Shown here in pieces: positions 7,448 through 26,215 of a DNA stretch of 38,926 bases. The position numbers were made by a program, and so were the translations under genes. Position 1 is the first letter of the stretch; every line of letters begins with the position of its first letter. Origin of the DNA: Escherichia phage T7; sequence record MZ375241.1. One strand, given 5' to 3'. The notes under the pieces are model-generated. The model was not told where the DNA came from. It saw only the letters and a list, made by a program, of their open reading frames with translations, and made no database searches.

Positions 7448-8029
7448 TGGGACTGTTAGATGGTGAAGCCTGGGAAAAAGAAAACCCGCCAGTACAAGCA
7501 ACTGGGTGTATAGCTTGCTTAGAGAAAGATGACCGTTATCCACACACCTGTAACAAAGGAGCTAACGATATGACCGAACGTGAACAAGAGATGATCATTA
7601 AGTTGATAGACAATAATGAAGGTCGCCCAGATGATTTGAATGGCTGCGGTATTCTCTGCTCCAATGTCCCTTGCCACCTCTGCCCCGCAAATAACGATCA
7701 AAAGATAACCTTAGGTGAAATCCGAGCGATGGACCCACGTAAACCACATCTGAATAAACCTGAGGTAACTCCTACAGATGACCAGCCTTCCGCTGAGACA
7801 ATCGAAGGTGTCACTAAGCCTTCCCACTACATGCTGTTTGACGACATTGAGGCTATCGAAGTGATTGCTCGTTCAATGACCGTTGAGCAGTTCAAGGGAT
7901 ACTGCTTCGGTAACATCTTAAAGTACAGACTACGTGCTGGTAAGAAGTCAGAGTTAGCGTACTTAGAGAAAGACCTAGCGAAAGCAGACTTCTATAAAGA
8001 ACTCTTTGAGAAACATAAGGATAAATGTT

Positions 8030-10442: not shown

Positions 10443-12312
<1,870 letters not shown>

Positions 12313-15839: not shown

Positions 15840-16139
15840 ATGGCTATGACAAAGAAATTTAAAGTGTCCTTCGACGTTACCGCAAAGATGTCGTCTGACG
15901 TTCAGGCAATCTTAGAGAAAGATATGCTGCATCTATGTAAGCAGGTCGGCTCAGGTGCGATTGTCCCCAATGGTAAACAGAAGGAAATGATTGTCCAGTT
16001 CCTGACACACGGTATGGAAGGATTGATGACATTCGTAGTACGTACATCATTTCGTGAGGCCATTAAGGACATGCACGAAGAGTATGCAGATAAGGACTCT
16101 TTCAAACAATCTCCTGCAACAGTACGGGAGGTGTTCTGA
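15840..16139 (+). CDS. 5.5: H-NS-binding protein
   Basis: ATG at 15840 after RBS aggaga; 99 aa. Confidence 0.8.
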   Translation: MAMTKKFKVSFDVTAKMSSDVQAILEKDMLHLCKQVGSGAIVPNGKQKEMIVQFLTHGMEGLMTFVVRTSFREAIKDMHEEYADKDSFKQSPATVREVF

Positions 16140-16348
16140 TGTCTGACTACCTGAAAGTGCTGCAAGCAATCAAAAGTTGCCCTAAGACTTTCCAGTCCAA
16201 CTATGTACGGAACAATGCGAGCCTCGTAGCGGAGGCCGCTTCCCGTGGTCACATCTCGTGCCTGACTACTAGTGGACGTAACGGTGGCGCTTGGGAAATC
16301 ACTGCTTCCGGTACTCGCTTTCTGAAACGAATGGGAGGATGTGTCTAA
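16139..16348 (+). CDS. 5.7: Small protein (reported host sigma-S inhibitor)
   Basis: 69-aa ORF, ATG overlapping the 5.5 stop. Confidence 0.8.
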   Translation: MSDYLKVLQAIKSCPKTFQSNYVRNNASLVAEAASRGHISCLTTSGRNGGAWEITASGTRFLKRMGGCV

Positions 16349-16506: not shown

Positions 16507-17395
16507 CCTTAAACAATTCTATGAGTTACGTGAAGGCTGCGACGACAAGGGTATCCTTGTGATGGACGGCGACTGGCTGGTCTTCCAAGCTATGAGTGCT
16601 GCTGAGTTTGATGCCTCTTGGGAGGAAGAGATTTGGCACCGATGCTGTGACCACGCTAAGGCCCGTCAGATTCTTGAGGATTCCATTAAGTCCTACGAGA
16701 CCCGTAAGAAGGCTTGGGCAGGTGCTCCAATTGTCCTTGCGTTCACCGATAGTGTTAACTGGCGTAAAGAACTGGTTGACCCGAACTATAAGGCTAACCG
16801 TAAGGCCGTGAAGAAACCTGTAGGGTACTTTGAGTTCCTTGATGCTCTCTTTGAGCGCGAAGAGTTCTATTGCATCCGTGAGCCTATGCTTGAGGGTGAT
16901 GACGTTATTGGAGTTATTGCTTCCAATCCGTCTGCCTTCGGTGCTCGTAAGGCTGTAATCATCTCTTGCGATAAGGACTTTAAGACCATCCCTAACTGTG
17001 ACTTCCTGTGGTGTACCACTGGTAACATCCTGACTCAGACCGAAGAGTCCGCTGACTGGTGGCACCTCTTCCAGACCATCAAGGGTGACATCACTGATGG
17101 TTACTCAGGGATTGCTGGATGGGGTGATACCGCCGAGGACTTCTTGAATAACCCGTTCATAACCGAGCCTAAAACGTCTGTGCTTAAGTCCGGTAAGAAC
17201 AAAGGCCAAGAGGTTACTAAATGGGTTAAACGCGACCCTGAGCCTCATGAGACGCTTTGGGACTGCATTAAGTCCATTGGCGCGAAGGCTGGTATGACCG
17301 AAGAGGATATTATCAAGCAGGGCCAAATGGCTCGAATCCTACGGTTCAACGAGTACAACTTTATTGACAAGGAGATTTACCTGTGGAGACCGTAG
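16493..17395 (+). CDS. 6: 5'-3' exonuclease
   Basis: 300-aa ORF. Confidence 0.95.
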   Translation: MALLDLKQFYELREGCDDKGILVMDGDWLVFQAMSAAEFDASWEEEIWHRCCDHAKARQILEDSIKSYETRKKAWAGAPIVLAFTDSVNWRKELVDPNYKANRKAVKKPVGYFEFLDALFEREEFYCIREPMLEGDDVIGVIASNPSAFGARKAVIISCDKDFKTIPNCDFLWCTTGNILTQTEESADWWHLFQTIKGDITDGYSGIAGWGDTAEDFLNNPFITEPKTSVLKSGKNKGQEVTKWVKRDPEPHETLWDCIKSIGAKAGMTEEDIIKQGQMARILRFNEYNFIDKEIYLWRP

Positions 17396-21875: not shown

Positions 21876-21898
21876 TAATACGACTCACTATAGGGAGA
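21876..21898 (+). promoter_or_regulatory. T7 RNAP class III promoter phi10 (+1 at 21893) with the gene 10 leader and RBS
   Basis: taatacgactcactatagggaga followed by ...tttaactttaagaaggagatatacatATG. Confidence 0.95.
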
Positions 21899-21955
21899 CC
21901 ACAACGGTTTCCCTCTAGAAATAATTTTGTTTAACTTTAAGAAGGAGATATACAT

Positions 21956-22993
21956 ATGGCTAGCATGACTGGTGGACAGCAAATGGGTACTAACCAAGGT
22001 AAAGGTGTAGTTGCTGCTGGAGATAAACTGGCGTTGTTCTTGAAGGTATTTGGCGGTGAAGTCCTGACTGCGTTCGCTCGTACCTCCGTGACCACTTCTC
22101 GCCACATGGTACGTTCCATCTCCAGCGGTAAATCCGCTCAGTTCCCTGTTCTGGGTCGCACTCAGGCAGCGTATCTGGCTCCGGGCGAGAACCTCGACGA
22201 TAAACGTAAGGACATCAAACACACCGAGAAGGTAATCACCATTGACGGTCTCCTGACGGCTGACGTTCTGATTTATGATATTGAGGACGCGATGAACCAC
22301 TACGACGTTCGCTCTGAGTATACCTCTCAGTTGGGTGAATCTCTGGCGATGGCTGCGGATGGTGCGGTTCTGGCTGAGATTGCCGGTCTGTGTAACGTGG
22401 AAAGCAAATATAATGAGAACATCGAGGGCTTAGGTACTGCTACCGTAATTGAGACCACTCAGAACAAGGCCGCACTTACCGACCAAGTTGCGCTGGGTAA
22501 GGAGATTATTGCGGCTCTGACTAAGGCTCGTGCGGCTCTGACCAAGAACTATGTTCCGGCTGCTGACCGTGTGTTCTACTGTGACCCAGATAGCTACTCT
22601 GCGATTCTGGCAGCACTGATGCCGAACGCAGCAAACTACGCTGCTCTGATTGACCCTGAGAAGGGTTCTATCCGCAACGTTATGGGCTTTGAGGTTGTAG
22701 AAGTTCCGCACCTCACCGCTGGTGGTGCTGGTACCGCTCGTGAGGGCACTACTGGTCAGAAGCACGTCTTCCCTGCCAATAAAGGTGAGGGTAATGTCAA
22801 GGTTGCTAAGGACAACGTTATCGGCCTGTTCATGCACCGCTCTGCGGTAGGTACTGTTAAGCTGCGTGACTTGGCTCTGGAGCGCGCTCGCCGTGCTAAC
22901 TTCCAAGCGGACCAGATTATCGCTAAGTACGCAATGGGCCACGGTGGTCTTCGCCCAGAAGCTGCTGGTGCAGTGGTTTTCAAAGTGGAGTAA
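21956..22993 (+). CDS. 10A: Major capsid protein 10A
   Basis: 345-codon ORF MASMTGGQQMG... Confidence 0.97.
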   Translation: MASMTGGQQMGTNQGKGVVAAGDKLALFLKVFGGEVLTAFARTSVTTSRHMVRSISSGKSAQFPVLGRTQAAYLAPGENLDDKRKDIKHTEKVITIDGLLTADVLIYDIEDAMNHYDVRSEYTSQLGESLAMAADGAVLAEIAGLCNVESKYNENIEGLGTATVIETTQNKAALTDQVALGKEIIAALTKARAALTKNYVPAADRVFYCDPDSYSAILAALMPNAANYAALIDPEKGSIRNVMGFEVVEVPHLTAGGAGTAREGTTGQKHVFPANKGEGNVKVAKDNVIGLFMHRSAVGTVKLRDLALERARRANFQADQIIAKYAMGHGGLRPEAAGAVVFKVE

Positions 22994-23151
22994 TGCTGGG
23001 GGTGGCCTCAACGGTCGCTGCTAGTCCCGAAGAGGCGAGTGTTACTTCAACAGAAGAAACCTTAACGCCAGCACAGGAGGCCGCACGCACCCGCGCTGCT
23101 AACAAAGCCCGAAAGGAAGCTGAGTTGGCTGCTGCCACCGCTGAGCAATAA
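21956..23151 (+). CDS. 10B: Minor capsid protein 10B made by programmed -1 frameshift near the end of 10A
   Basis: Slippery ggttttc at 22975-22981; the -1 frame stays open to TAA at 23149-23151. Confidence 0.8.
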
Positions 23152-23158
23152 CTAGCAT

Positions 23159-23198
23159 AACCCCTTGGGGCCTCTAAACGGGTCTTGAGGGGTTTTTT
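23159..23198 (+). terminator. Tphi terminator for T7 RNAP
   Basis: aaccccttggggcctctaaacgggtcttgaggggtt stem-loop followed by tttttt. Confidence 0.95.
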
Positions 23199-23216
23199 GC
23201 TGAAAGGAGGAACTAT

Positions 23217-23807
23217 ATGCGCTCATACGATATGAACGTTGAGACTGCCGCTGAGTTATCAGCTGTGAACGACATTCTGGCGTCTATCGGTGAACCTCCG
23301 GTATCAACGCTGGAAGGTGACGCTAACGCAGATGCAGCGAACGCTCGGCGTATTCTCAACAAGATTAACCGACAGATTCAATCTCGTGGATGGACGTTCA
23401 ACATTGAGGAAGGCATAACGCTACTACCTGATGTTTACTCCAACCTGATTGTATACAGTGACGACTATTTATCCCTAATGTCTACTTCCGGTCAATCCAT
23501 CTACGTTAACCGAGGTGGCTATGTGTATGACCGAACGAGTCAATCAGACCGCTTTGACTCTGGTATTACTGTGAACATTATTCGTCTCCGCGACTACGAT
23601 GAGATGCCTGAGTGCTTCCGTTACTGGATTGTCACCAAGGCTTCCCGTCAGTTCAACAACCGATTCTTTGGGGAACCGGAAGTAGAGGGTGTACTCCAAG
23701 AAGAGGAAGATGAGGCTAGACGTCTCTGCATGGAGTATGAGATGGACTACGGTGGGTACAATATGCTGGATGGAGATGCGTTCACTTCTGGTCTACTGAC
23801 TCGCTAA
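23217..23807 (+). CDS. 11: Tail tubular protein A (gatekeeper)
   Basis: 196-aa ORF with RBS aaggagg. Confidence 0.9.
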
Positions 23808-23830
23808 CATTAATAAATAAGGAGGCTCTA

Positions 23831-26215
23831 ATGGCACTCATTAGCCAATCAATCAAGAACTTGAAGGGTGGTATCAGCCAACAGCCTGACATCCTTCGTT
23901 ATCCAGACCAAGGGTCACGCCAAGTTAACGGTTGGTCTTCGGAGACCGAGGGCCTCCAAAAGCGTCCACCTCTTGTTTTCTTAAATACACTTGGAGACAA
24001 CGGTGCGTTAGGTCAAGCTCCGTACATCCACCTGATTAACCGAGATGAGCACGAACAGTATTACGCTGTGTTCACTGGTAGCGGAATCCGAGTGTTCGAC
24101 CTTTCTGGTAACGAGAAGCAAGTTAGGTATCCTAACGGTTCCAACTACATCAAGACCGCTAATCCACGTAACGACCTGCGAATGGTTACTGTAGCAGACT
24201 ATACGTTCATCGTTAACCGTAACGTTGTTGCACAGAAGAACACAAAGTCTGTCAACTTACCGAATTACAACCCTAATCAAGACGGATTGATTAACGTTCG
24301 TGGTGGTCAGTATGGTAGGGAACTAATTGTACACATTAACGGTAAAGACGTTGCGAAGTATAAGATACCAGATGGTAGTCAACCTGAACACGTAAACAAT
24401 ACGGATGCCCAATGGTTAGCTGAAGAGTTAGCCAAGCAGATGCGCACTAACTTGTCTGATTGGACTGTAAATGTAGGGCAAGGGTTCATCCATGTGACCG
24501 CACCTAGTGGTCAACAGATTGACTCCTTCACGACTAAAGATGGCTACGCAGACCAGTTGATTAACCCTGTGACCCACTACGCTCAGTCGTTCTCTAAGCT
24601 GCCACCTAATGCTCCTAACGGCTACATGGTGAAAATCGTAGGGGACGCCTCTAAGTCTGCCGACCAGTATTACGTTCGGTATGACGCTGAGCGGAAAGTT
24701 TGGACTGAGACTTTAGGTTGGAACACTGAGGACCAAGTTCTATGGGAAACCATGCCACACGCTCTTGTGCGAGCCGCTGACGGTAATTTCGACTTCAAGT
24801 GGCTTGAGTGGTCTCCTAAGTCTTGTGGTGACGTTGACACCAACCCTTGGCCTTCTTTTGTTGGTTCAAGTATTAACGATGTGTTCTTCTTCCGTAACCG
24901 CTTAGGATTCCTTAGTGGGGAGAACATCATATTGAGTCGTACAGCCAAATACTTCAACTTCTACCCTGCGTCCATTGCGAACCTTAGTGATGACGACCCT
25001 ATAGACGTAGCTGTGAGTACCAACCGAATAGCAATCCTTAAGTACGCCGTTCCGTTCTCAGAAGAGTTACTCATCTGGTCCGATGAAGCACAATTCGTCC
25101 TGACTGCCTCGGGTACTCTCACATCTAAGTCGGTTGAGTTGAACCTAACGACCCAGTTTGACGTACAGGACCGAGCGAGACCTTTTGGGATTGGGCGTAA
25201 TGTCTACTTTGCTAGTCCGAGGTCCAGCTTCGCGTCCATCCACAGGTACTACGCTGTGCAGGATGTCAGTTCCGTTAAGAATGCTGAGGACATTACATCA
25301 CACGTTCCTAACTACATCCCTAATGGTGTGTTCAGTATTTGCGGAAGTGGTACGGAAAACTTCTGTTCGGTACTATCTCACGGGGACCCTAGTAAAATCT
25401 TCATGTACAAATTCCTGTACCTGAACGAAGAGTTAAGGCAACAGTCGTGGTCTCATTGGGACTTTGGGGAAAACGTACAGGTTCTAGCTTGTCAGAGTAT
25501 CAGCTCAGATATGTATGTGATTCTTCGCAATGAGTTCAATACGTTCCTAGCTAGAATCTCTTTCACTAAGAACGCCATTGACTTACAGGGAGAACCCTAT
25601 CGTGCCTTTATGGACATGAAGATTCGATACACGATTCCTAGTGGAACATACAACGATGACACATTCACTACCTCTATTCATATTCCAACAATTTATGGTG
25701 CAAACTTCGGGAGGGGCAAAATCACTGTATTGGAGCCTGATGGTAAGATAACCGTGTTTGAGCAACCTACGGCTGGGTGGAATAGCGACCCTTGGCTGAG
25801 ACTCAGCGGTAACTTGGAGGGACGCATGGTGTACATTGGGTTCAACATTAACTTCGTATATGAGTTCTCTAAGTTCCTCATCAAGCAGACTGCCGACGAC
25901 GGGTCTACCTCCACGGAAGACATTGGGCGCTTACAGTTACGCCGAGCGTGGGTTAACTACGAGAACTCTGGTACGTTTGACATTTATGTTGAGAACCAAT
26001 CGTCTAACTGGAAGTACACAATGGCTGGTGCCCGATTAGGCTCTAACACTCTGAGGGCTGGGAGACTGAACTTAGGGACCGGACAATATCGATTCCCTGT
26101 GGTTGGTAACGCCAAGTTCAACACTGTATACATCTTGTCAGATGAGACTACCCCTCTGAACATCATTGGGTGTGGCTGGGAAGGTAACTACTTACGGAGA
26201 AGTTCCGGTATTTAA
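23831..26215 (+). CDS. 12: Tail tubular protein B (nozzle)
   Basis: 794-aa ORF. Confidence 0.9.
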   Translation: MALISQSIKNLKGGISQQPDILRYPDQGSRQVNGWSSETEGLQKRPPLVFLNTLGDNGALGQAPYIHLINRDEHEQYYAVFTGSGIRVFDLSGNEKQVRYPNGSNYIKTANPRNDLRMVTVADYTFIVNRNVVAQKNTKSVNLPNYNPNQDGLINVRGGQYGRELIVHINGKDVAKYKIPDGSQPEHVNNTDAQWLAEELAKQMRTNLSDWTVNVGQGFIHVTAPSGQQIDSFTTKDGYADQLINPVTHYAQSFSKLPPNAPNGYMVKIVGDASKSADQYYVRYDAERKVWTETLGWNTEDQVLWETMPHALVRAADGNFDFKWLEWSPKSCGDVDTNPWPSFVGSSINDVFFFRNRLGFLSGENIILSRTAKYFNFYPASIANLSDDDPIDVAVSTNRIAILKYAVPFSEELLIWSDEAQFVLTASGTLTSKSVELNLTTQFDVQDRARPFGIGRNVYFASPRSSFASIHRYYAVQDVSSVKNAEDITSHVPNYIPNGVFSICGSGTENFCSVLSHGDPSKIFMYKFLYLNEELRQQSWSHWDFGENVQVLACQSISSDMYVILRNEFNTFLARISFTKNAIDLQGEPYRAFMDMKIRYTIPSGTYNDDTFTTSIHIPTIYGANFGRGKITVLEPDGKITVFEQPTAGWNSDPWLRLSGNLEGRMVYIGFNINFVYEFSKFLIKQTADDGSTSTEDIGRLQLRRAWVNYENSGTFDIYVENQSSNWKYTMAGARLGSNTLRAGRLNLGTGQYRFPVVGNAKFNTVYILSDETTPLNIIGCGWEGNYLRRSSGI

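What the first reader, a model, noticed from the sequence alone, without database searches (positions are those of the whole stretch)
22971..23151. Programmed -1 frameshift at the end of the major capsid gene (10A to 10B)
10A stops at 22993, but a slippery ggttttc at 22975-22981 followed by an open -1 frame to TAA at 23149-23151 would give a capsid variant about 52 residues longer (10B). The Tphi hairpin (23159-23198) follows directly, so the frameshift window and terminator are tightly packed.
Basis: partly seen in the sequence, partly recalled or inferred. Interest (0 to 1): 0.4.

Follow-up and report, generated by a model that had tools for sequence, protein, structure and literature searches.

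The report
T7 capsid gene 10A/10B frameshift

Summary
The window is a laboratory deletion strain of phage T7. Positions 21956-23230 are base-for-base identical to reference T7 22967-24241. 10A (345 codons) stops at TAA 22991-22993. G_GUU_UUC lies in register at 22975-22981. The -1 frame is open to TAA 23149-23151. Tphi (hairpin 23159-23194, U-run to 23198) follows 7 nt later. One correction: 10B is 398 codons, so it is 53 residues longer, not 52 (342 shared residues plus 56 unique ones). NC_001604 and V01146 already annotate this joined CDS as gene 10B, and papers report about 10% frameshifting and a dispensable product. New comparative support: all 80 related loci carry an in-register slippery motif in the last 3-9 codons of 10A, followed by an open -1 extension. 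Substitutions switch from 0-frame to -1-frame third positions at the slip site. The first base of the heptamer varies (G/A/C) while GUU_UUC does not. The literature's unexplained dependence on the terminator's CCCC could not be resolved: a slip-site/Tphi pairing idea failed its controls. A predicted stem-loop (22986-23049) with suppressed synonymous variation at 23004-23050 remains a modest, unproven lead. Verdict: already known, low interest.

The parts
21876..21898 (+). T7 class III promoter phi10, with +1 at 21893. It drives the gene 10 mRNA.
   Evidence: Exact 23-nt consensus match. The reference annotates phi10 at 22904, which is window 21893.
21956..22993 (+). Gene 10A, the major capsid protein: 345 codons plus TAA at 22991-22993.
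   Evidence: ORF list. Identical to T7 reference 22967-24004. Pfam Gp10A-like, E = 1e-114. PDB 10A chains 2xvr, 3izg and 3j7v-x.
22975..22981 (+). Slippery heptamer G_GUU_UUC. The P-site tRNA-Val moves from GUU to GGU, and the A-site tRNA-Phe moves from UUC to UUU.
   Evidence: Sequence and register. It is the only in-register slippery motif in gene 10. GTT_TTC is invariant in 9 Teseptimavirus sequences, while the first G varies. An equivalent motif is present in 80 of 80 related loci. PMC5009743 names G_GU in T7 gene 10.
22981..23151 (+). -1 frame segment of gene 10B: 56 sense codons (QSGVML...ATAEQ) plus TAA at 23149-23151. C22981 is read twice.
   Evidence: Translation. The joined CDS in NC_001604 and V01146 ends at 24162, which is window 23151. 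There is an excess of substitutions at -1-frame third positions, 21/52 against 17/103, p = 0.0016.
22986..23049 (+). Predicted local stem-loop starting 5 nt after the slip site (a 4-nt spacer). It is a candidate stimulator, inferred and not demonstrated.
   Evidence: MFE structure, with z = -2.6 (65 nt) and -3.0 (40 nt) against windows from the 10A body. Pairs are kept in 91% of cells across 20 distinct relatives, but with one-sided changes only and covariation no better than shuffles. Synonymous variation is suppressed at 23004-23050: 4/15 against 73/99, p = 6e-4.
23159..23198 (+). Tphi, the T7 RNA polymerase terminator: hairpin 23159-23194 and U-run 23193-23198. It begins 7 nt after the 10B stop.
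   Evidence: Fold of -28.2 kcal/mol, z = -4.9. The reference marks Tphi at 24210, which is window 23199. It is invariant in 9 relatives.
23161..23164 (+). CCCC in the 5' arm of Tphi, reported in the literature to be needed for full frameshift efficiency.
   Evidence: Sequence. Review PMC5009743, citing Condron et al. 1991 NAR, calls this long-range effect unexplained.

Best explanation
This is the programmed -1 ribosomal frameshift of phage T7 gene 10. Ribosomes translating the phi10-to-Tphi mRNA reach G_GUU_UUC (22975-22981) with tRNA-Val on GUU in the P site and tRNA-Phe on UUC in the A site. In a minority of passages, about 10% according to the literature, both tRNAs slip one base 5', to GGU and UUU. 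C22981 is then re-read as the first base of CAA, and translation continues in the -1 frame for 56 codons to UAA at 23149-23151. The result is 10B, which is 398 codons (397 residues after Met removal): 342 residues shared with 10A plus a 56-residue Ala/Glu/Thr-rich tail. According to the literature 10B is a minor, non-essential capsid subunit. Ribosomes that do not slip stop at UAA 22991-22993 and make 10A. What is shown here: the anatomy, identity to T7, conservation, and the switch of coding frame. What comes from the literature: the protein product, its frequency and its dispensability. What is inferred: that the efficiency also depends on RNA 3' of the site, meaning the reported terminator CCCC and possibly the predicted stem-loop at 22986-23049.
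For: Window 21956-23230 is identical to T7 reference 22967-24241. NC_001604 and V01146 annotate the two-piece CDS as gene 10B, minor capsid protein. The reconstructed 10B is 398 codons, which matches the 397 residues given in PMC3444042 and PMC5592923. In 9 Teseptimavirus sequences at 81-100% identity, GTT_TTC, the open -1 frame and Tphi are all conserved. Variable columns fall on 0-frame third positions upstream of the slip (10/16 against 1/30, p = 2e-5) and on -1-frame third positions downstream (21/52 against 17/103, p = 0.0016). All 80 IMG/VR relatives have an in-register slippery motif in the last 3-9 codons of 10A followed by a -1 extension. The motifs are GGTTTTC, AGTTTTC, CGTTTTC, CCCAAAG, GGTTTTA/TTTAAAG and GGTAAAG. 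The extension is 38-93 codons in 79 of the loci. Berlinvirus and Teetrevirus records annotate the same joined 10B. Literature: about 10% frameshifting and under 1% with the heptamer alone (PMC1635266); G_GU in T7 gene 10 and the terminator CCCC effect (PMC5009743); 10B is dispensable (PMC3276506).
Against: Nothing contradicts the frameshift itself. The heptamer departs from the strict X_XXY_YYZ form, because GGU re-pairs with tRNA-Val at only two of three positions, and the first base is not conserved (A in PHB19 and L025, C in Ebrios and L031). No 3' stimulatory structure is proven: the alifold covariation term is -0.16, and the local stem-loop shows no compensatory changes within the T7 group. 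I could not read the three primary 1991 papers, so the protein-level statements rest on secondary citations.
Confidence: 0.97

Rival explanations
1. The -1 ORF is a separate small gene. Ribosomes that terminate at the 10A stop re-initiate at the overlapping ATG (TAATG, 22991-22995) and make a free 52-residue peptide rather than a 10A fusion.
For: ATG 22993-22995 overlaps the stop, and GGAG lies at 22987-22990. TAATG is invariant in the 9 close relatives. Many GenBank records and PHROG 12582 treat this ORF as a stand-alone 'head/minor capsid protein'.
Against: GGAG sits only 2 nt from the ATG and is not conserved; it is GGGG or AGCG in relatives. Most other lineages have no start codon at the equivalent place (post-slip sequences of clusters L033, L041, L043 and L047; FE44), yet they keep the slip motif and the extension. 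The literature describes 10B as a 397-residue protein that shares the 10A sequence. The separate-ORF annotations come from gene callers, which cannot join frames.
Confidence: 0.02
2. The shift happens at the RNA level. T7 RNA polymerase slips on the T-run and adds a base, so a subset of mRNAs encodes 10B directly.
For: There is a run of four T at 22977-22980. Transcriptional slippage is a known route to alternative products in some phages and bacteria (topic of review PMC5009743).
Against: The run is only 4 nt. From general knowledge, polymerase slippage needs runs of about 7-9 or more. Relatives replace the motif with other heptamers of the X_XXY_YYZ type, such as C_CCA_AAG and G_GUA_AAG, that keep codon register, which tRNA slippage requires and polymerase slippage does not. 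The review lists T7 gene 10 under ribosomal frameshift sites.
Confidence: 0.005
3. It is a coincidence: a chance slippery-looking heptamer next to a chance open frame, with no product.
For: On sequence alone the motif is not rare. About 0.13 would be expected in the 21-codon overlap window, and 7 of 28 T7 ORFs have -1 extensions of 50 codons or more.
Against: The other long extensions are downstream genes. The motif and extension are conserved in 80 of 80 relatives, and the extension carries a -1-frame coding signature. The product is annotated and documented in the literature.
Confidence: 0.005

Closest known systems
Phage T7 gene 10A/10B -1 frameshift (Dunn & Studier 1983; Condron, Atkins & Gesteland 1991; Sipley et al. 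1991, as cited in PMC5009743 and PMC1635266)
   Same: Everything. The sequence from the gene 10 start through Tphi is identical to NC_001604, and the coordinates map onto the annotated joined CDS.
   Different: Nothing in this region. The window's genome differs from the reference only elsewhere, by three early-region deletions and 18 substitutions.
Phage T3 / Teetrevirus gene 10 frameshift (for example phiSG-JL2 and Klebsiella phage Patroon)
   Same: A -1 frameshift within the last few codons of the orthologous capsid gene, giving a minor C-terminally extended capsid protein that ends just before the Tphi equivalent.
   Different: The slip site is different (C_CCA_AAG or G_CCA_AAG rather than G_GUU_UUC). 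In T3-like phages the extension is longer, about 86-93 residues, and the review describes it as Ig-like. The T7 tail matches no Pfam domain.
E. coli dnaX -1 frameshift (A_AAA_AAG with an upstream Shine-Dalgarno element and a 3' stem-loop)
   Same: [quoted passage not shown]
   Different: dnaX shifts about 50% of the time and has well-defined 5' Shine-Dalgarno and 3' stem-loop stimulators, and its shifted product is shorter. T7 shifts about 10% of the time, uses a relaxed P-site re-pairing (G_GU), and has a stimulator that is reported to be distal and unexplained.
Frameshift-extended capsid or tail proteins of other tailed phages (Lactobacillus A2, Listeria A118/A500/PSA, as listed in PMC5009743)
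   Same: A C-terminal extension of a virion structural protein made by a low-frequency programmed frameshift.
   Different: These are unrelated genes and sites. Some use +1 frameshifting, and many of their extensions are Ig-like domains, which the T7 tail is not.

Membership tests
T7 gene 10A/10B locus (identity) | Nucleotide identity to reference T7 across gene 10, the 10B extension and Tphi | tested here: met
   Window 21956-23230 equals NC_001604 22967-24241 exactly. There is 100% megablast identity to many T7 records.
T7 gene 10A/10B locus (identity) | The reference annotation carries a joined (frameshifted) 10B CDS at the same coordinates | tested here: met
   The 'j2' CDS 22967..24162 is annotated 'gene 10B, minor capsid protein' in V01146 and NC_001604, and corresponds to window 21956..23151.
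Programmed -1 ribosomal frameshift (tandem slippage) | Slippery heptamer X_XXY_YYZ in the 0-frame register | tested here: met
   G_GUU_UUC is in register. It is a relaxed form, because XXY is GUU. The review explicitly lists G_GU of T7 gene 10 as an accepted variant.
Programmed -1 ribosomal frameshift (tandem slippage) | The -1 frame is open from the slip site and gives a distinct, longer product | tested here: met
   56 sense codons run to TAA 23149-23151.
Programmed -1 ribosomal frameshift (tandem slippage) | The site and trans-frame ORF are conserved in relatives, with a coding signature in the new frame | tested here: met
   80 of 80 loci. The third-position excess switches frame at the slip site, p = 2e-5 upstream and p = 0.0016 downstream.
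Programmed -1 ribosomal frameshift (tandem slippage) | A 3' stimulatory RNA structure a few nucleotides after the site | tested here: inconclusive
   A stem-loop is predicted at 22986-23049 (z = -2.6 to -3.0), and synonymous variation is suppressed at 23004-23050 (p = 6e-4). There are no compensatory changes, and covariation equals shuffles. The literature points to a distal element in Tphi instead.
Programmed -1 ribosomal frameshift (tandem slippage) | The trans-frame protein is demonstrated experimentally | not testable with these tools
   Reported in the literature (about 10%, 397 residues, present in virions).
Ig-like C-terminal capsid extension made by frameshift (T3 type) | The extension contains an Ig-like (Big_2-type) domain | tested here: not met
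   The T7 tail has no Pfam match at E <= 0.1. The review states that the T7 extension is not Ig-like.
Transcriptional slippage | A long homopolymeric run (about 7-9 nt or more) at the shift point | tested here: not met
   Only four T at 22977-22980. The length threshold comes from general knowledge.

The most novel reading that the evidence does not exclude
Besides the heptamer, the T7 gene 10 frameshift signal may include an RNA element in the first 70 nt or so of the 10B extension. The candidate is the predicted stem-loop 22986-23049, whose 3' two-thirds (23004-23050) show strongly suppressed synonymous variation. This element might act alone, or through alternative pairing with the CCCC-containing 5' arm of Tphi: in T7 the best complement to that arm anywhere in the gene 10 mRNA lies 23-42 nt after the slip site. 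If so, it would give a physical basis for the terminator dependence that has gone unexplained since 1991. Comparable unusually stable local folds follow the slip site in 9 of 14 lineage representatives, and one related family shows compensatory changes in its hairpin.
Probability: 0.25. Interest if true: 0.35.

Novelty: already known. Interest (0 to 1): 0.1.

Why it matters
The finding itself adds nothing new. The T7 10A/10B frameshift is a classic recoding example and the basis of T7Select phage display. Its value here is as a positive control: a reader with no tools located the site, the frame, the stop and the terminator correctly. Two by-products are mildly useful. First, many deposited T7-like genomes and one PHROG family mis-split the 10B tail into a separate small gene. 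The rule seen in 80 of 80 loci (an in-register heptamer in the last 3-9 codons plus a -1 extension that usually ends just before Tphi) could be used to correct those annotations. Second, what stimulates this frameshift is still listed as unexplained in the 2016 recoding review. The localised synonymous constraint at 23004-23050 gives a defined target for mutagenesis.

Tried and rejected
1. Long-range pairing between the post-slip region and the 5' arm of Tphi. This looked promising in T7 (rank 1 of 386 windows, z = -3.05) and in phiSG-JL2 (a 13-bp helix, rank 1 of 381, z = -3.6). It failed the wider test: over 13 independent post-slip clusters the mean z was -0.99, against -1.00 for a reversed-arm control and -0.61 for the 3' arm, and only the T7 cluster had its best window after the slip. 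Patroon showed nothing (rank 210 of 428). I reject it as a conserved feature. It is not excluded for T7 alone.

2. Covariation support for any structure between the slip site and Tphi in the T7 group. The alifold covariation term was -0.16. The named stem-loop had only one-sided changes, and 182 of 500 shuffles scored as high. Tphi is invariant and therefore uninformative.

3. A GGGGG (22999-23003) to CCCC (23161-23164) pairing. The G-run is not conserved in close relatives (CUAGGAG, CUAAGGG, CUAAAGG).

4. A domain assignment for the 10B tail. There was no Pfam hit, and the only PHROG hits are families built from the tail itself.

5. Reading the primary papers (PMC209055, PMC328964, PMC5952207). 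They are not held, so I could not check whether the authors tested the local stem-loop.

6. Judging significance from the sequence alone. An open -1 frame of 50 codons or more is not rare among T7 ORFs (7 of 28), although the other cases are downstream genes.

Full report
**What the window is.** The ORF at 21956-22993 begins MASMTGGQQMG. A megablast of 21900-23260 finds more than 100 Escherichia phage T7 records at 99% identity or better, many at 100%. Aligning the whole window to NC_001604 shows a complete T7 genome, including the 160-bp terminal repeats. It has three deletions totalling 1011 bp and 18 substitutions. Over the first 12 kb the best match is the laboratory strain MZ375243.1 'T7_60L'. 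In the gene 10 region the offset is +1011, and window 21956-23230 is identical to reference 22967-24241.

**Checking the observation.**
- 10A ends ...AVVFKVE with TAA at 22991-22993.
- GGTTTTC lies at 22975-22981, and the 0-frame codons are GTG|GTT|TTC, so the register is G_GUU_UUC.
- The -1 frame reads ...GFQSGVMLGVASTVAASPEEASVTSTEETLTPAQEAARTRAANKARKEAELAAATAEQ with no stop until TAA at 23149-23151.
- Tphi folds as a hairpin at 23159-23194 followed by UUUUUU at 23193-23198. Its energy is -28.2 kcal/mol, z = -4.9, and none of 200 shuffles folds as well. It starts 7 nt after the 10B stop.

The reconstructed 10B is 398 codons against 345 for 10A. It is therefore 53 residues longer, not 52: 342 shared residues plus 56 unique ones. 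The figure of 52 is the length of the free-standing ATG ORF at 22993-23151.

**Is it more than chance?** On sequence alone the case is modest. Among 28 long plus-strand ORFs there are 65 in-register motifs of the X_XXY_YYZ type in 10,519 codon positions. That predicts about 0.13 in the 21-codon stretch where the -1 frame is already open. Gene 10 has exactly one such motif, and it falls in that stretch. Only four of the 65 motifs lead into a -1 frame that passes the 0-frame stop. Two read into the overlapping gene 3.5, one gains 11 codons, and the fourth is this one.

**What it is.** The reference records NC_001604 and V01146 carry a two-piece CDS at 22967..24162 labelled gene 10B, minor capsid protein. 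This corresponds to window 21956..23151. Held papers state the following:
- A -1 frameshift at GGTTTTC produces 10B in about 10% of translations, and the heptamer alone, placed in a reporter, gives under 1% (PMC1635266).
- 10A is 344 residues and 10B 397 residues after Met removal, and 10B is not essential (PMC3444042, PMC5592923 and PMC3276506).
- G_GU in T7 gene 10 is an accepted relaxed form of the X_XX part of the heptamer (PMC5009743).
- A CCCC in the transcription terminator more than 200 nt downstream is involved, and this long-range effect 'remains to be explained' (PMC5009743).

The three primary 1991 papers are not in the library.

**Independent comparative evidence.** In nine Teseptimavirus sequences at 81-100% identity, the hexamer GTT_TTC, the TAATG stop/Met overlap, the open -1 frame and Tphi are all invariant. 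The first base of the heptamer varies: A in PHB19 and C in Ebrios.

Variable alignment columns follow the coding frame. In the 46 nt upstream of the slip, 10 of 16 0-frame third positions vary against 1 of 30 other positions (p = 2e-5). In the extension, 21 of 52 -1-frame third positions vary against 17 of 103 others (p = 0.0016). The frame under purifying selection therefore switches at the slip site.

Among 80 IMG/VR loci encoding gp10A relatives (77-100% protein identity), all 80 have an in-register slippery motif in the last 3-9 codons of 10A, followed by an open -1 extension. The motifs are GGTTTTC, AGTTTTC, CGTTTTC, CCCAAAG, GGTTTTA/TTTAAAG and GGTAAAG. The extension is 38-93 codons in 79 loci and usually ends a few nucleotides before the terminator hairpin. 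Curated records of Berlinvirus FE44 and of the Teetreviruses phiSG-JL2 and Patroon annotate the same joined product. FE44 keeps G_GTT_TTC and a homologous tail. The Teetreviruses use C_CCA_AAG or G_CCA_AAG, and Patroon has a long, unrelated extension.

**Mechanism.** The best explanation is standard tandem tRNA slippage.
1. tRNA-Val on GUU re-pairs with GGU, and tRNA-Phe on UUC re-pairs with UUU.
2. C22981 is re-read as the first base of CAA.
3. Translation proceeds in the -1 frame to UAA 23149-23151.

The variability of the heptamer's first base among relatives shows that P-site re-pairing is only weakly constrained. This fits the 'G_GU' relaxed class described in the review.

The rivals are weak:
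- Independent initiation at the overlapping ATG is contradicted by the poor and unconserved Shine-Dalgarno spacing. Most other lineages also lack any start codon there yet keep the motif and the extension.
- Polymerase slippage is unlikely on a 4-nt run, and it does not explain why different heptamers all preserve the codon register.

**The stimulator (the only open point).** I tested whether the reported terminator dependence could reflect pairing between the post-slip region and the 5' arm of Tphi.
- In T7, the best complement to that arm anywhere in the gene 10 mRNA lies 23-42 nt after the slip site (rank 1 of 386 windows).
- In phiSG-JL2, a 13-bp helix starts 6 nt after its own, different slip site (rank 1 of 381).
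- Across 13 independent post-slip clusters the mean z was -0.99. That is the same as a reversed-arm control (-1.00) and close to the 3'-arm control (-0.61).

The apparent signal is therefore largely compositional and is not a conserved feature.

A local structure is better supported, though still unproven.
- The 65 nt starting 4-10 nt after the slip site are unusually stable in 9 of 14 lineage representatives (at or below the 1% tail of equally treated windows from their own 10A body; mean z = -1.75). In T7, z is -2.6 to -3.0 for a stem-loop at 22986-23049.
- Across 20 distinct T7-type sequences, 91% of cells keep pairing. All changes are one-sided, and covariation equals shuffles.
- Synonymous variation is locally suppressed. 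At 23004-23050 only 4 of 15 -1-frame third positions vary, against 73 of 99 in the last 300 nt of 10A (p = 6e-4) and 18 of 22 in the rest of the tail (p = 0.0017). None of 185 sliding windows of 16 third positions in the 10A body falls that low (minimum 8 variable).
- In a related family with a long extension, a hairpin about 20-62 nt after the slip site shows two adjacent compensatory pairs (AU to GC and CG to UA), and 0 of 500 shuffles reach the observed values.

These sub-windows were chosen after looking at the data, and the sequences are phylogenetically related. I therefore treat this as a lead, not a result.

**Comparison with what is known, and verdict.** This is the T7 10A/10B frameshift itself. 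It is not merely similar to it: the sequence is identical, the annotation is the same, and the literature agrees. It differs from the T3-type version in slip site and in extension type. The T7 tail has no Pfam domain, whereas the review describes the T3 extension as Ig-like. It differs from dnaX in efficiency and in having no defined stimulator. Novelty: already known. Interest is low.

Noticed in passing
whole window; junctions near 1341-1352, 7044/7045 and 10532-10534: The window is a complete T7 genome from a laboratory deletion strain. Relative to NC_001604 it lacks about ref 1353-1903 (genes 0.4-0.6), ref 7608-7763 (gene 1.4) and about ref 11254-11542 (inside gene 3.8), and it has 18 substitutions. 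The first 12 kb are 100% identical to MZ375243.1 'T7_60L'.
   Followed up: partly
window 23004-23050: Synonymous variation is locally suppressed in the 10B tail. Only 4 of 15 -1-frame third positions vary, against 73 of 99 in the 10A body and 18 of 22 in the rest of the tail. The stretch coincides with the 3' two-thirds of a predicted stem-loop at 22986-23049. This suggests a constraint at the RNA level.
   Followed up: partly
window 22993-23151; loci L002 and L007-L014: Many deposited T7-like genomes annotate the 10B tail as a separate ORF of about 50 codons ('minor capsid/head protein'). PHROG 12582, a 52-residue profile, is built from such mis-split tails.
   Followed up: yes
window 22975 (first base of the heptamer); L013, L014, L025, L031, L032: The first G of G_GUU_UUC is replaced by A or C in several relatives, while GUU_UUC never changes. 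P-site re-pairing after the slip is therefore under little constraint.
   Followed up: yes
window 23098-23151 (the last 18 codons of 10B): Several unrelated PDB chains (4iqz_A, 1jfi_A, 4pg4_A, orotidine decarboxylases, PET hydrolases) match only the end of the 10B tail at their own C-termini; the alignment shown for 4iqz_A ends in AANKARKEAELAAATAEQ, the last 18 residues of 10B. This probably reflects read-through into the gene 10/Tphi fragment carried by pET-type vectors (vector origin is from memory). 8rcx_A has a charge-swapped copy of the tail (R/K changed to E) at its N-terminus, which suggests an engineered tag.
   Followed up: partly
L047, L038, L085 and relatives (27 distinct sequences), about +20 to +62 nt after their GGTTTTC: A related capsid-gene family with a 91-93-codon extension has a long hairpin downstream of the slip site. 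Two adjacent pairs show compensatory changes (AU to GC in 9 sequences, CG to UA in 7), 98.3% of cells are paired, and 0 of 500 shuffles reach the observed values.
   Followed up: partly
L077 (IMGVR_UViG_2700988866_000001, 38616 bp): This is the only one of the 80 relatives whose -1 extension is short (16 codons), and it leaves about 100 nt before the terminator. It may be a lineage with a truncated 10B.
   Followed up: no
window 15840-16348 (ref 16851-17359): The T7 reference also annotates two other 'possible' two-piece CDSs: gene 5.5-5.7, which is present in this window, and gene 0.6B, which lies in the first deletion. Neither was examined here.
   Followed up: no
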